The notes under the pieces are model-generated. The model had not been told where the DNA came from and ran no database searches. It saw nothing but the letters and a program-made list of their open reading frames with translations. A DNA stretch of 64,000 nucleotides, taken from the NCBI RefSeq assembly GCF_009914755.1, contig NC_060936.1. One strand, written 5' to 3'. The stretch is from the human T2T-CHM13v2.0 reference genome, Homo sapiens. This document shows positions 40,004 to 48,539 of this stretch, piece by piece. The translations under genes and the position numbers were made by a program. Position 1 is the stretch's first letter. Every line of letters starts with the position of its first letter.

Positions 40004-40997
40004 GTAGGTAGCATGTTCATGCATTTCTTTCACGTTAGAATCAAATATAACAGAACCTTTTCTCAGCCTTCATGCTGCTTATGGGGTTGATTGGCCAGGT
40101 GGAGAACTCCAGATGTCCTGATGAGCCACACTGGCATTCTCTCCTAGTGTCTGGCAGCCTCTTTCATAGATCTGTGGTTGGGAATGAAGGGTTAATACTT
40201 AAAACCTTTTTGGTTTACAAGTGCCAGTTAAGGTTAAGGTGGTAGTGATGGTTTTTTAAAAGTTATTAAGTCTTATTTCCAGAATGCTGTTACGTTTCAT
40301 TTCCAGAATTCTGAGACACTTAACACACAATAGCTACAGCTGGCTCCTGAATACAGTAAATTGTCATTGTGACCTTGGATACTTTAGGGGACCCAAAAAT
40401 CTTCTCCCAGGGATGGCTTTTTTAATAGCTTATGAAATCACTGGCGACACTGACTGCAGCAACCAGCATGCTCCTGACTTAGTTTGTATGACTGTTTGAA
40501 ACCTCAGCAACCTTTCCATGATGCAGATAGCATTGTTTGTATTATGAGCAAGGCTTTTGCCAGTTTTGGCAGGGCAAGATTAGAGGCTGAGTGTGGAGTA
40601 GCTACATGGGCCATTTCTTTGAAAGGGAACTTGAGAAGGTGGAGAATGGCTACTGGGACCTCATCACAGAAAGTTAACACTGAAAAGAATAAGTGCATGA
40701 ATTATTTACATCCTTCAGTCACATGGAAACATCTATAATAAATGACCATTACATTTGCCATATCAAAAATATAAAAGGAAGGTGGGTGATCTACAGTGAC
40801 CACAAAGTTTGTGCCACAGAAGGGCCCCCTGAAGGCCTGGGTTACATGTACTTTTACCACAGTATACCAAGCTAAACCTCAAACATACGAATCAGTGAGA
40901 AGAAGCCACATACCTTTTTAATTTGCCAAAAAGTTAGAACAGCCAGATATGAAGAAATACATTGTGTATTTGTAGTTTATTTAAAGAATACACTCAT

Positions 40998-41303
40998 GCT
41001 GGGCGTGGTGGCTCACACCTGTAATCCCAGCACTTTGGGAGGCCCAGGCGGGTGGATCATCTGAGGTCAGGAGTTTGATACCAGCCTGGCCAACATGCTG
41101 AAACCCATCTCTACTAAAAAAACAAAAGTTAGTTGGGCATGGTAGCACATGCCTGTAATCCCAGCTACTCGGGAGGCTGAGGCATGAGAATCAATTGAAC
41201 CCAGAAGGTGGAGGTTGTAGTGAGCTGTGATTGCACCACTGCACTCCAGCCTGGGCGACAGAGTGAGACTCTGTCTCAAAAATAAAAAAGTTAAAAAAAA
41301 AAA
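40998..41303 (+). mobile_element. Alu (S-type) inside the USP13 retrocopy
   Basis: Degenerate TSD aaagaatacactcat / aaagagcacagtcat. Confidence 0.92.
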
Positions 41304-41683
41304 GAGCACAGTCATTTGATGCCTTCTGATATAGAACTGAGAAGAAATTCATATTAGTGATGATACACTATTGTAGATAGTTTTAATAAATGTTTAAGTA
41401 GAAGATAATATAAAAAAGGGTGTTCATTTTGCTGGCGAGAGATCTACCATCAGTACATCAAAAATGGGGATGTGCTCCCAGTCCTCTATTGGGGGATAGG
41501 TGCTAGTGGCCTTCAGAGAAACCTATTTATGTGGCCAGTGGTGTGGCCTTACCTGCAGTAAATAAAAAACCTTCTTGGTGTTTCATATAGAAAATCAGCC
41601 ATTGGGCGGGGCATTATTTACGGCATTTTTTTTTCATTGCACACAATAATTTCTGACCTATACATGTATAATACAGCATTTTC

Positions 41684-41999
41684 TTGTTTTTCTTTTTCTT
41701 TTCTTTTTTTTTTTTTTTTCTGAGATGGAGTCTTGCTATGTTCCCCAGGCTGGAGTGCGATGGTACAATCTTGGCTCACCACAACCTCTGCCTCCCGGGT
41801 TCAAGTGGTTCTTCTGCCTCAGCCTCCAAAGTAGCTGGGATTGCAGGCACTTACCATGCCTGGCTAATTTTGTATTTTTAGTAGAGACGGGGTTTCTCCA
41901 TGTTGGTTAGGCTGGTCTCGAACTCCCAACCTCAGGTGATCCGCCTGCCTCAGCCTCCCAAAGTGCTGGGATTATAGGGGTGAGCCACCATGCCCAACC
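41684..41999 (-). mobile_element. Alu (S-type)
   Basis: TSD aatacagcattttc. Confidence 0.92.
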
Positions 42000-42642
42000 A
42001 ATACAGCATTTTCCATAAAATATATTTTTAATTTAAATCATACAAAAATTCATAATATGATTTTGTGAATGTGTGTGAAAGTGTGAGACCTTTACATTTC
42101 ACTACAAAACCTGTGATGGTTTGGTTTTTAAAGGCTAAACGGTTGGTATTAAGCAAGTAAATATTTTAATGAAACTATAACTCAGGAACAGTTTAAAATA
42201 TTAGTTTCCCACTTAGATTTCAAGGCATAAAAAGGGCTGAGTTTATCCCTTTAAGTGCTGTCAAGAATTCACTTGGGTTTGTGATATTTGGTGGTACAAT
42301 GCCAAATGCCCACAGCAGCATTATATTGTACTTTGCCAAAGGTAGACAGAGGAATTCTCTATTTCTCAGCAGTCGTTTCCCCAAAAAGTATAATGTTTAT
42401 TTTTAGTTAAAATAGTCTTGTTTTACCATACCACATGATGACTCCCTGGAAGTTATCATGTGAAGTTCCCCAAATTAGTATTTTCTCATCTCTGAGCTCT
42501 TTGCCTGACTCCATTTCTACATTTTTCAGGGGCCAGAGGCTCATCTCTGCCATTTTTCCATGTATCGCCTCCTGATTTGACTTCACTGATTATCTGCTGT
42601 GACTAGCAGTGTTATTTTGGATACTTTAAGAATTTCAGATGT

Positions 42643-46458: not shown

Positions 46459-46775
46459 GGCCAAGCACAGTGGCTCAGGCCTGTAATCCCAGCACTTTGG
46501 GAAGTTGAGGCGGGCAGATCGCTTGAACCCAGGAATTTGAGACCAGCCTGGGCAACATGGCAAAACCCTATCTCTACAAAGTATATATAAAAAAAAAAAA
46601 TTAGCCAGGCGTGGTGGTGTGTGATAGTAGTCCCAGCTACTCAGGAAGGCTGAGGTGGAAGGATCACTTGAGGCCAGGGAGGTCAAAGCTGTAGTGAGCT
46701 GTGATGATGTTACTGCACTCCAGCCTGGGCAACAGAGTGACACCTGCTCAAAAACAAAACAAAACCAAAAAAAAC
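46459..46775 (+). mobile_element. Alu (J-type)
   Basis: Dimer; TSD-like aaacaa(g/a)gttct. Confidence 0.9.
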
Positions 46776-46881
46776 AAAGTTCTCTACTCTTAAGTTGGTA
46801 TATAAGATGACCTGCACAGTGTCACAGAGATTTCCCACTCAGTAAATCACTCTGAAAGAGTTTGCATAAGATTCTGTAGAT

Positions 46882-47507
46882 TTGCAGTATTTAATGTGGA
46901 TAGTCAATAGCTACATGTGGCAAATGGCCACTTGAAATTTGGCTTGCCAAATTGAGACTGTACTGTACACATAAAATATATACCAGATCTTGAAGGATTG
47001 GTACCAGAAAAGAATATAAAACGTTTCATCAATATTTTATATTGATTACATACTGAAATGACAATATTTTAGATATATCGATTAAATAAAATAATAATTT
47101 GATAAATATAATTATTTCACTTATTTTTATATTTTTTATGTGGCTACTAAAAAATTTAAAATTAGACATAGGGGTAACGTACTTCTTTGTTTTTTGAGAC
47201 AGAGTCTCACTCTGTCGCCCAGGCTGAGTACAGTGGCACAATCTCGGCTCACTCCAACCTCCACCTCCTTGGGTTCAAGTGATTCTCCTGCCTCAGCCTC
47301 CTGTGTAGCCGGGATTACAAGTGTGCACCACCATGTCTAGCTAATTTTTCTATTTTTAGTAGTGACAGAGTTTCACCGTGTTGGCCAGGCTGGTCTCGAA
47401 TTCCTGACCTCAAGTGATCCACCCACGTCAGCCTCCCAAAGTGCTGGGATTACAGGCGTGAGCCACCGTGCCTGGCCTGGCTAATGTAATTCTATTGGAC
47501 ATGCTAC
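46882..47507. mobile_element. MER33-like hAT DNA transposon remnant split by an Alu
   Basis: ctacatgtggc...cacttgaaat...tattgattaca...ctattggaca resembles the recalled MER33 consensus. Confidence 0.7.
47182..47478 (-). mobile_element. Alu (S-type)
   Basis: Full dimer inside the MER33-like element. Confidence 0.92.
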
Positions 47508-48539
47508 TCTACACTTACATGGTTTGGGGTAGGCAGTGAAATACCATAGGTAGAAAAGGTAATTCAGTGAAGCATCCAAATAGACAGAAACAACACAAAT
47601 ATTTTTGCTGGAGTCAGGAGCACTATGTGGCACAGAACACCTCCCAGAAAGCAGAAAATTTTTCTGCCTGAAAACCAATGTATATGTAAGACCCCAAGTA
47701 AAAAACAAAAGCAAATGAGCCCCAAACTGTCTTCCCTCAGCTTTGCCTGGGAGCTGCTATCTTTGCACTTATTTTTCTAGCATCAGGATATTAGCCACAT
47801 GAGGGAGCCAAGCATATTTGTCTCATTTTAGGCATCATTCTTTTGTGGTTCCCCCCACCCCAGGTATTGTTGAGTCTGTCCAAAGCTGGGTGAGATACCA
47901 CACAAGTCTTGCTTCCCTCAGTGTGCTGCTTCTCTCGGCCTTGGTGGAGGCTGAGCCTGTTGCCGGTACCCACCAGCCCAGTAGGTTTTGATGCTGCCTC
48001 CTGAAAGAGATTGTATTTGTTTCGTTTTGCACTAGTCACAGTTGTTGTTTAAACTACATCAAATTTGGGGGGAGAATATTTGCCTGTGATGGAAAGAGAG
48101 ATAGATGAGTTATTGCTTCAAGTGTTTTAAAATAAAAGCTATTCTCACACACAAAAAAAAAAAAAGAAAGAAAAAGAAAAGAAAGGGAGCTCAAATCAGG
48201 AGGAAATGGTGGTTTTTCCTGTAAGTGAGGTTTCAGCCAGACACATTTTCTTTTTCTTTTTTTCTTTTTTCTTTTTTTTTTTAAGTCAGTAGTGGTTTAT
48301 TAAATGGTTGTATCACATCTGGAAAACATTATTCAAAACATTTATTCAGCGTACTTCCTGTTCATATTTTAGAAGATGTAAAGCAATGAAATTTGCTCTA
48401 AATAAATGGCATTTTTTTTGCCATTATTTGGCATCTTGCCAGGTTACTTTTTACATCCAAGTTCAAGTGATATTTTGTTCTCAAAATAAAATAATTTTCA
48501 AGGTTTGGAAGTATAATGCGAAAATTTTAACAGGGATTC

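What the first reader, a model, noticed from the sequence alone, without database searches (positions are those of the whole stretch)
40696..48184. USP13 retrocopy with its long 3'UTR and poly(A) signal, in sense orientation inside SLC4A8 intron 16
Seen: a stop-free ~59-codon frame ending [32 protein letters not shown] at 40875, then ~5 kb of AT-rich UTR-like sequence once Alus are removed, then AATAAA (48131) and an A-tail (from 48153). Known (recalled): USP13 ends [58 protein letters not shown], and DHKV, YMYFY and IPS separate it from USP5. The Cys box is absent and His-box residues are altered (GHY to DHY, YND to YSD), so this is not an enzyme. Inference: a 5'-truncated L1-mediated retrocopy imported another gene's 3'-end signals (AATAAA at 41385, 41561, 45149 and 48131) into the host's sense strand, which creates an intronic polyadenylation trap. 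I found no convincing TSD.
Basis: partly seen in the sequence, partly recalled or inferred. Interest (0 to 1): 0.8.

Follow-up and report, generated by a model that had tools for sequence, protein, structure and literature searches.

The report
Old USP13 retrocopy in SLC4A8 intron
This is a dead, roughly 7.5-kb processed copy of the tail end of the USP13 messenger RNA sitting inside an SLC4A8 intron, an ordinary kind of genomic fossil, whose only notable features are that it preserves an unusual USP13 splice form and that, with a later Alu insertion, it supplies an annotated alternative last exon of SLC4A8.

Summary
Window 40631-48179 (+) is colinear with the 3' end of the gene on contig C3 of the same genome. 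Two exons of that gene are letter-for-letter identical to PDB chains named USP13. The copy lacks two parental introns. It runs through about 5 kb of 3'UTR, stops at the parental cleavage site 17 nt after the parental ATTAAA, and is followed by an A-rich tail. K2P distance to the parent is 0.166 over 4,957 aligned columns. Eight Alus inserted later.

- The copy starts about 65 nt further 5', at 40631. Those 63 nt come from a non-coding stretch inside a USP13 intron that ends at a consensus splice donor. The template was therefore an alternatively spliced USP13 RNA.
- A candidate target-site duplication exists (40621-40631 and 48181-48191, 10 of 11 matching), but it is only weakly significant.
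- Only one of the four listed AATAAA hexamers (48131) corresponds to the parent's real signal.

The "polyadenylation trap" idea is partly borne out. A RefSeq alternative SLC4A8 exon (44790-45405) starts at an antisense-Alu acceptor inside the retrocopy and ends in USP13-UTR-derived sequence. It uses none of the four hexamers. Overall this is an ordinary processed pseudogene of low interest.

The parts
40631..48179 (+). Whole USP13 processed pseudogene, including later Alu insertions and the A-tail. The 5' end is uncertain within 40631-40636.
   Evidence: Colinear blastn chain to contig C3 182575172-233, 182585267-357 and 182587571-182592925. These searches found only these two copies in the genome.
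40621..40631 (+). Candidate 5' target-site duplication (GAAAGGGAACT).
   Evidence: Best ungapped match between the two flanks, 10 of 11 identical. 33 of 2000 shuffles and 100 of 2000 random window 45-mers reach the same score.
40631..40693 (+). Segment derived from an alternative, non-coding USP13 exon that lies in the intron before the penultimate exon.
   Evidence: 78% identity over 63 nt to C3:182575172-182575233, E 3.2e-07 within the 150-kb USP13 locus. The parental stretch ends at AAG|GTAGGT and has stops in two of three frames. In the window it abuts the next exon directly.
40694..40781 (+). Homologue of the penultimate USP13 exon (C3:182585264-182585348), with a 3-nt in-frame insertion.
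40782..40875 (+). Coding start of the last USP13 exon, through the stop codon at 40873-40875. The exon-exon junction is at 40781|40782 with no intron.
   Evidence: The parental intron (GT at C3:182585349, AG ending at 182587572; 2,224 nt) is absent. Translation.
40876..48152 (+). USP13 3'UTR-derived sequence, interrupted by Alus.
   Evidence: Eight colinear blocks with K2P 0.157-0.180.
40998..41300 (+). Alu inserted after retroposition.
   Evidence: Absent from the parent. It is flanked by a duplication of retrocopy sequence that is single-copy in the parent. 7.7% non-CpG divergence from the local Alu consensus.
41679..42000 (-). Alu inserted after retroposition.
   Evidence: 11.2% divergence.
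42643..43247 (+). Nested pair of Alus. The inner one is about 42791-43087, inside an outer one.
   Evidence: blastn pattern. Flanking duplication AATTTCAGA[T/C]G. The inner Alu shows 7.3% divergence.
44205..44501 (+). Alu inserted after retroposition.
   Evidence: 7.8% divergence.
44770..45023 (-). Antisense Alu, shortened. It supplies the acceptor and the whole coding tail of the alternative SLC4A8 exon.
   Evidence: At position -3 of the acceptor it has C where the local consensus of 21 Alus has G. 8.3% divergence.
44790..45405 (+). RefSeq alternative SLC4A8 exon (from the hub's gene table), terminal. It has an in-frame 76-codon Alu-encoded tail with a stop at 45018-45020. Positions 45031-45405 are USP13-UTR-derived.
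   Evidence: The acceptor is T17-CAG|A. There is no GT after 45405. Reading frame from the joined window exons.
45383..45388 (+). AATGAA, candidate weak poly(A) hexamer. It ends 17 nt before the annotated exon end and has T/GT-rich sequence downstream.
   Evidence: The same hexamer is present at the homologous parental position. Its status as a known variant signal is recalled, not tested.
46454..46777 (+). Oldest Alu inside the retrocopy.
   Evidence: 17.5% non-CpG divergence, within the oldest class in the window (16-19%). Flanking duplication of retrocopy sequence.
47181..47479 (-). Alu inserted after retroposition.
   Evidence: 7.3% divergence.
48131..48136 (+). AATAAA, homologous to the parental ATTAAA poly(A) signal.
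   Evidence: parental sequence; alignment.
48153..48179 (+). Degenerate A-tail of the retrocopy.
   Evidence: It begins where homology to the parent ends (C3:182592925).
48181..48191 (+). Candidate 3' target-site duplication (GAAAGGGAGCT).

Best explanation
A polyadenylated, alternatively spliced USP13 RNA was reverse-transcribed and inserted, presumably by L1 target-primed reverse transcription, into the SLC4A8 intron between exons 39842-40003 and 50586-50699, in the sense orientation. The copy holds only the last 58 USP13 codons plus the full 3'UTR. It was dead on arrival and has drifted neutrally since.

The insertion is old. Eight Alus inserted into it later, including one of the oldest Alu class in the window. 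I infer an early-primate or slightly earlier date.

The element has no function of its own. Its one visible effect on the host gene is indirect. A later antisense Alu provides a strong 3' splice site. The USP13-UTR-derived sequence downstream provides the 3'UTR and a weak cleavage site. Together they make an alternative terminal exon of SLC4A8. The predicted product stops about halfway through the membrane domain and would not be a transporter.

Shown: identity of the parent, loss of two introns, colinearity to the poly(A) site, the tail, the later Alus, and the anatomy and reading frame of the alternative exon.

Inferred: L1 as the machinery, the age, neutrality, and actual use and abundance of the alternative exon.
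For: - Parent named: two exons of the C3 locus are identical to PDB USP13 chains, 2l80 at 62 of 62 and 2lbc at 45 of 45 aligned residues. The spliced last two exons translate to a 58-residue C-terminus ending RRIPS followed by a stop.
- Intron loss 1: window 40781|40782 joins sequences that lie 2,224 nt apart in the parent, with a GT...AG intron between them.
- Intron loss 2: window 40693|40694 joins C3:182575233, which is followed by GTAGGT, to the first base of the penultimate exon at 182585264, 10 kb away.
- Colinearity: ten blocks, 4,957 aligned columns, 85.3% identity, K2P 0.166 (0.154 without CpG sites).
- 3' end: homology ends at C3:182592925, 17 nt after the parental ATTAAA. The window then has the A-run and the parent has unrelated sequence.
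- Candidate TSD placed directly at both ends.
- Later Alus: each of six insertion points shows a flanking duplication of sequence that is single-copy in the parent; the seventh (44770-45023) is unclear. One Alu is present only in the parent (C3:182591134-182591420).
- Neutral drift: 40 of 58 residues kept, dN/dS 0.55, no upstream coding sequence.
- Alternative exon: antisense-Alu acceptor, in-frame tail, stop at 45018, no donor at 45406.
- Truncation point: exon 39842-40003 covers positions 216-265 of the 551-position HCO3_cotransp profile.
Against: - The TSD is weak. 33 of 2000 shuffles and 100 of 2000 random window 45-mers score as well. The hallmark of L1 insertion is therefore not firmly shown.
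- The 63-nt alternative-exon match is short (E 3.2e-07 within the 150-kb locus). A genome search with the parental stretch returned only itself. That shows it is not a common repeat, but the search did not independently recover the window copy.
- No transcript data were available. That the exon 44790-45405 exists rests only on the hub's gene table, which does not say whether the transcript is curated or a model.
- The age rests on recalled calibrations. No other mammalian genome could be searched.
Confidence: 0.93

Rival explanations
1. The retrocopy acts as a substantial intronic polyadenylation trap through its inherited USP13 3'-end signal (48131) and the other AATAAA hexamers. Many SLC4A8 transcripts would then end unspliced inside this intron.
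For: The element is in the sense orientation. It carries an AATAAA at 48131 at the position of the parent's working ATTAAA, plus eight further AATAAA hexamers on the + strand. One annotated SLC4A8 transcript does end inside the element (hub table).
Against: The only annotated end inside the element (45405) uses none of the four listed hexamers and depends on an Alu acceptor. At three of the four sites the parent does not read AATAAA, and these are not known parental signals. The element has been tolerated in the sense orientation for tens of millions of years in a gene whose downstream exons are required for the membrane domain. That argues any leak is small. No paper links SLC4A8 with intronic polyadenylation.
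Confidence: 0.15
2. The annotated exon 44790-45405 is transcriptional noise or a model artefact and has no biological consequence. The retrocopy is an entirely inert passenger.
For: The predicted product lacks more than half of the transporter domain. Its tail is Alu-encoded with no Pfam match. The hexamer AATGAA is non-canonical. Reviews of NDCBE variants describe only N- and C-terminal variants plus one isolated N-terminal-domain clone, and nothing that ends here (passages read in PMC4664831 and PMC4464172).
Against: The acceptor is strong on its face: 17 T's followed by CAG, where the Alu consensus has GAG. The exon end is not next to a genomic A-run, so internal priming is an unlikely source. 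The stop lies in the last exon, so by the established NMD rule the transcript should escape nonsense-mediated decay (inference).
Confidence: 0.35
3. The segment arose by DNA-level (segmental) duplication of the USP13 3' end, or derives from the paralogue USP5, and is not a retrocopy of USP13 mRNA.
For: None beyond general similarity. USP5 also matches the coding remnant.
Against: Two parental introns (2.2 kb and 10 kb) are precisely absent. Homology stops at the poly(A) site and is followed by an A-tail. The USP5 locus matches only 96 nt at 76%, while the USP13 locus matches at 87% and across the whole 3'UTR.
Confidence: 0.01

Closest known systems
L1-mediated processed pseudogenes (retrocopies) of protein-coding genes
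   Same: It is intron-less, colinear with the mature mRNA up to the cleavage site, has a 3' A-tail, is incomplete at the 5' end, lies on a different chromosome from the parent, has short direct repeats at both ends (weak here), and shows neutral decay.
   Different: It records a non-canonical splice form of the parent. An extra non-coding exon from the intron before the penultimate exon is joined to that exon. More than 90% of the copy is 3'UTR.
Alu exonization (antisense Alu supplying a 3' splice site from its poly-T and adjacent AG)
   Same: The alternative SLC4A8 exon starts right after the reverse-complemented Alu A-tail, at an AG in the Alu. A G-to-C difference from the consensus at position -3 gives CAG.
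   Different: The exon is terminal, not an internal cassette. Its 3'UTR and cleavage site come from a retrocopied foreign 3'UTR and not from the Alu or the native intron.
Sense-oriented retroelements in introns as sources of premature polyadenylation
   Same: A sense-oriented retroposed sequence carrying poly(A) hexamers lies inside an intron. A review passage (PMC6240941) states that sense LTR elements are depleted in human introns, most likely because they interfere with splicing and polyadenylation.
   Different: Here the inserted element is a cellular mRNA copy. There is no evidence that its own terminal signal is used by the host gene.
USP13 / USP5 deubiquitinases (peptidase C19, Pfam UCH)
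   Same: The remnant aligns to the last 56 positions of the UCH profile and to the USP5 and USP13 C-terminus.
   Different: It has no Cys box, no zinc-finger or UBA domains and no start. Residues next to the catalytic His and Asn/Asp have changed. It is not an enzyme.

Membership tests
Processed pseudogene / retrocopy | Parental introns absent at exon-exon junctions | tested here: met
   Two junctions, 40693|40694 and 40781|40782. The parental introns of about 10 kb and 2,224 nt are missing.
Processed pseudogene / retrocopy | Colinear with the mature mRNA and ending at the parental poly(A) cleavage site | tested here: met
   Ten colinear blocks. Homology ends at C3:182592925, 17 nt after the parental ATTAAA.
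Processed pseudogene / retrocopy | Poly(A) tail not encoded at the parental locus | tested here: met
   The A-rich run at 48153-48179 is in the window only.
Processed pseudogene / retrocopy | Target-site duplication flanking the 5' end and the tail | tested here: inconclusive
   10 of 11 match at 40621-40631 and 48181-48191. 33 of 2000 shuffles and 100 of 2000 random 45-mers reach the score.
Processed pseudogene / retrocopy | Insertion at an L1 endonuclease-like site (TT/AAAA-like; consensus recalled) | tested here: inconclusive
   The pre-insertion site would read ...TTTCTTT|GAAAGG. That is compatible but degenerate, and no statistic was made.
Derived from USP13 and not from USP5 | Closer to the USP13 locus than to the USP5 locus, and homologous to the USP13 3'UTR | tested here: met
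   87% against 76% over the same coding stretch. The 3'UTR matches only the C3 locus. The C3 locus is identical to PDB USP13 chains.
Functional USP (peptidase C19) enzyme | Cys box and a complete catalytic core in an open frame with a start | tested here: not met
   Only UCH profile positions 199-254 of 254 are present. A stop lies directly upstream. No upstream USP13 exons were found in 40004-40630.
Alu-derived (exonized) terminal exon of the host gene | Antisense Alu with the exon start at an AG next to its poly-T | tested here: met
   The Alu at 44770-45023 is on the minus strand. The acceptor is T17-CAG|ATGGAG at 44789|44790.
Alu-derived (exonized) terminal exon of the host gene | Transcript evidence for use of the exon and its 3' end | not testable with these tools
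   The only evidence is the hub's RefSeq table row 'exons of other transcripts 44790-45405'. No reads, ESTs or poly(A)-site databases were at hand.
Intronic polyadenylation trap | Host transcripts cleaved at the element's own inherited signal | not testable with these tools
   The AATAAA at 48131 is intact, but there are no 3'-end data. No paper was found.

The most novel reading that the evidence does not exclude
A retrocopied USP13 3'UTR and a later antisense Alu together created a primate-specific, NMD-resistant SLC4A8 isoform. It would consist of the cytoplasmic N-terminal domain plus the first part of the membrane domain and a 76-residue Alu-encoded tail. It would be made in real amounts and would modulate the full-length Na+-driven Cl-/HCO3- exchanger, for example by dimerising with it. 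The imported USP13 UTR would bring USP13-type post-transcriptional control to this isoform.
Probability: 0.05. Interest if true: 0.5.

Novelty: new member of a known kind. Interest (0 to 1): 0.2.

Why it matters
Mostly it does not. Processed pseudogenes in introns are common, and this one is inert.

Two small points are worth keeping:
- The copy is a molecular fossil of an alternative USP13 splice form. An extra non-coding exon is joined to the penultimate exon, and its donor site is still a consensus site in the human gene today. This points to a testable, possibly regulatory (poison-type) exon in USP13.
- It is a clean worked example of how two unrelated retroposition events, an mRNA copy and then an Alu, can combine into a new terminal exon of a host gene. 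Here that exon truncates a neuronal and renal bicarbonate transporter.

For annotation, the RefSeq table supplied for this window lists no pseudogene here. Catalogues such as GENCODE, RetrogeneDB and RCPedia could not be consulted.

Tried and rejected
- First TSD guess: AAAAGAATAAGTGC just before 40694 against the sequence after the tail. I rejected it because that stretch is itself homologous to the parental alternative exon.
- More upstream USP13 exons in 40004-40630: blastn and tblastx against the whole 150-kb USP13 locus gave nothing beyond 40631-40693. A whole-genome search with 40004-40700 returned only itself.
- Other USP13 retrocopies: genome searches with two UTR blocks found only the window and the parent. 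That is 2 of 2 matches in each search, and the tool scores only its best candidates.
- Constraint on the open frame: rejected.
- RNA families: Rfam at gathering thresholds on 40000-48600 gave 0 matches.
- ATG-started ORFs of at least 90 aa in 40600-48200: only one, on the minus strand across an Alu.
- Literature, listings only:
  - 'USP13' + 'SLC4A8' gave 4 papers, all unrelated co-mentions judging by title.
  - USP13 pseudogene or retrocopy terms gave 0.
  - 'SLC4A8' + 'Alu' + 'exonization' gave 0.
  - 'SLC4A8' + 'intronic polyadenylation' gave 0.
- Earlier findings of this scan were not open to the session.
No other eukaryotic genome is held.

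
Full report
**What is in the sequence**

From stop to stop it runs 40693-40875 on the + strand, 60 codons, ending in ...[10 protein letters not shown] followed by a stop.
- It matches only the last 56 positions (199-254 of 254) of Pfam UCH, at E 6.4e-07.
- It matches the C-terminus of USP5 chain 3ihp_A at E 2.3e-18.
- The AATAAA hexamers at 41385, 41561, 45149 and 48131 and the A-run from 48153 are all present.

**Where it comes from**

A search of the window's own genome with 40693-40980 gave two pieces on contig C3 and one weaker piece on contig C12.
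- The two C3 pieces lie 2.2 kb apart, at 182585267-357 (80%) and 182587571-723 (87%).
- The C12 piece is at 6875279-6875374 (76%). By its exon content it is the USP5 locus.

I gave the C3 locus its name with tool results, not from memory. One exon translates to 62 of 62 residues identical to PDB 2l80_A. Another translates to 45 of 45 residues identical to 2lbc_A. Both chains are deposited as "Ubiquitin carboxyl-terminal hydrolase 13". USP5 chains score lower in both searches.

**Retrocopy anatomy**

blastn of window 40000-49500 against the C3 locus gives one colinear chain once Alu-to-Alu hits are set aside.

| Window | Contig C3 |
|---|---|
| 40697-40790 | 182585267-357 |
| 40780-40987 | 182587571-796 |
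| 41301-41668 | 182587792-182588177 |
| 42000-42641 | 182588197-872 |
| 43247-44205 | 182588863-182589870 |
| 44501-44775 | 182589857-182590101 |
| 45031-46086 | 182590090-182591140 |
| 46077-46458 | 182591420-834 |
| 46773-47186 | 182591823-182592257 |
| 47487-48149 | 182592251-925 |

Global alignment of these blocks gives 4,957 aligned columns, 85.3% identity and K2P 0.166, or 0.154 without CpG sites. Every block falls between 0.157 and 0.206.

The parental penultimate exon is 182585264-348. It is preceded by an AG and followed by GTGAGT. The last exon starts at 182587573 after a CAG. In the window the two are joined directly at 40781|40782, with a 3-nt in-frame insertion just upstream.

At the 3' end the parent reads ATTAAA, then 17 nt, and then unrelated sequence. 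The window reads AATAAA (48131), the same 17 nt, and then the A-run 48153-48179. The A-tail therefore belongs to this element.

Two genome searches with UTR blocks found only the window and the parent. The tool scores only its best candidates.

**A correction at the 5' end**

Homology seemed to stop within 3 nt of the start of the penultimate exon, which is suspicious for a random truncation. I therefore compared 40004-40700 with the whole 150-kb USP13 locus.
- Window 40631-40693 matches C3:182575172-182575233 (78% over 63 nt, E 3.2e-07).
- That stretch lies in the 16-kb intron between the exon at 182569221 and following (the second half of the UBA2 region) and the penultimate exon.
- It has stops in two of three frames and ends at AAG|GTAGGT, a consensus donor.
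- In the window its last base (40693) abuts the first base of the penultimate-exon homologue (40694).

This is a second intron-less junction. It shows that the template was an alternatively spliced USP13 RNA carrying an extra non-coding exon. A possible acceptor (polypyrimidine run then AG) lies at 182575176|177 in the parent, about where homology begins. I cannot tell whether the copy starts exactly there.

A genome search with the parental stretch returned only itself, so it is not a common repeat. Nothing further upstream in the window matches USP13.

**Target-site duplication**

With the corrected 5' end, the flanks share GAAAGGGAACT (40621-40631) and GAAAGGGAGCT (48181-48191). These sit directly before the first homologous base and directly after the tail. 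The match is 10 of 11. However, 33 of 2000 shuffles of the 5' flank and 100 of 2000 random 45-mers from the window score as well. It is a plausible but unproven TSD. An earlier candidate next to 40694 was dropped because it is part of the copy.

**Later insertions and age**

Eight Alus interrupt the copy at seven places: 40998-41300 (+), 41679-42000 (-), a nested pair at 42643-43247 (+), 44205-44501 (+), 44770-45023 (-), 46454-46777 (+) and 47181-47479 (-).
- At six of the seven insertion points the sequence on both sides repeats 10-15 nt that occur once in the parent. These are the Alus' own target duplications. The point at 44770-45023 is unclear.
- One Alu (C3:182591134-182591420) is in the parent only, and it too has its own duplication.

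I measured non-CpG divergence against a majority consensus of the 21 Alus of at least 230 nt in the window.

| Alus inside the retrocopy | Non-CpG divergence |
|---|---|
| 46459-46758 | 17.5% |
| 41709-41994 | 11.2% |
| Five others | 7.3-8.3% |

- The 46459-46758 Alu falls in the oldest class in the window (16.2-18.8%, four other copies).
- The outer Alu of the nested pair was not measured.

The retrocopy therefore predates an Alu of the oldest local class. Together with the K2P of 0.166 summed over both lineages, I infer an origin around or before the early primate radiation. This uses recalled Alu-age calibrations and is not shown. No other mammalian genome was available to test for an empty site.

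**State of the coding remnant**

40 of 58 residues are kept and dN/dS is 0.55. That is about what one neutral lineage plus one constrained lineage would give. A residue is inserted, a TAA lies directly upstream, and the Cys box and all other domains are missing. It is not an enzyme, and the open frame is not beyond chance.

**The poly(A) hexamers**

| Window site (AATAAA) | Present-day parent reads |
|---|---|
| 41385 | TATAAA |
| 41561 | AATGAA |
| 45149 | 3-nt gap, then ATAAAA |
| 48131 | ATTAAA (the parent's real signal) |

"Imported 3'-end signals" is accurate only for the last site. Without an outgroup I cannot say on which lineage the other three changed.

**Effect on the host gene**

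The hub's RefSeq table lists an exon of another SLC4A8 transcript at 44790-45405, inside the retrocopy.
- Its start follows T17-CAG. This is the reverse-complemented A-tail and first bases of the antisense Alu 44770-45023. This copy has C at position -3 where the local Alu consensus has G.
- Position 45406 is not a GT, so the exon is terminal.
- Joined to exon 39842-40003 (phase 0), it reads on for 76 Alu-encoded codons to a stop at 45018-45020. The rest (45031-45405) is USP13-UTR-derived.
- The hexamer AATGAA (45383-45388) ends 17 nt before the exon end, with T/GT-rich sequence downstream. The same hexamer sits at the homologous parental position. That AATGAA is an accepted weak variant signal is recalled, not tested.
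- Exon 39842-40003 covers positions 216-265 of the 551-position HCO3_cotransp profile, and the next canonical exon covers 267-304. The predicted product therefore lacks more than half of the membrane domain.

Passages I read in two reviews of SLC4 variants describe NDCBE-A to -E and one N-terminal-domain-only clone, and no variant ending here (PMC4664831, PMC4464172). The annotated premature end needs the later Alu and uses a different cleavage site. Whether the inherited signal at 48131 is ever used could not be tested.

**Comparison with what is known, and verdict**

This is a textbook processed pseudogene and meets three of the four classic criteria firmly. Its host-gene effect is a combination of Alu exonization and a borrowed 3'UTR. 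A review passage (PMC6240941) notes depletion of sense-oriented LTR elements in introns because of interference with splicing and polyadenylation. This element is a tolerated exception, which argues that its effect is small.

I found nothing in print on it (listings only). Pseudogene catalogues could not be consulted, so it may well be catalogued already. Interest is low (0.2). The two details worth a note are the fossil alternative USP13 exon and the composite Alu-plus-retrocopy terminal exon.

Noticed in passing
window 48247-48541 (minus strand): Just 3' of the USP13 retrocopy lies a second, much younger retroposed fragment in antisense orientation. Window 48280-48541 is 97.3% identical over 262 nt to contig C14:94127912-94128173. 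It is preceded on the + strand by a T-run at 48247-48284, which is an A-tail on the minus strand, with AATAAA on the minus strand about 16 nt before it. The C14 gene was not identified.
   Followed up: partly
window ~48551-48885: A stretch masked as repeat follows directly after that fragment. From memory it looks like an internal L1 piece in + orientation. Its relation to the neighbouring C14-derived fragment was not examined.
   Followed up: no
L024 (contig C3) 182575172-182575233: This non-coding stretch in the USP13 intron before the penultimate exon still has a consensus donor (AAG|GTAGGT) and a possible acceptor at 182575176|177 in the present human genome. It may be a live alternative or poison-type exon of USP13. 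No transcript data were available.
   Followed up: partly
L006 (contig C3) 182591134-182591420: An antisense Alu sits in the present USP13 3'UTR and is absent from the retrocopy, so it inserted into the parental gene after the retrocopy was made.
   Followed up: yes
window 39139-39374 and 31341-32231: The hub's table lists two further alternative SLC4A8 exons that look like premature ends: an extension of exon 39139-39244 into its intron, and an 891-nt exon. The latter may correspond to the N-terminal-domain-only clone mentioned in PMC4664831. Neither was examined.
   Followed up: no
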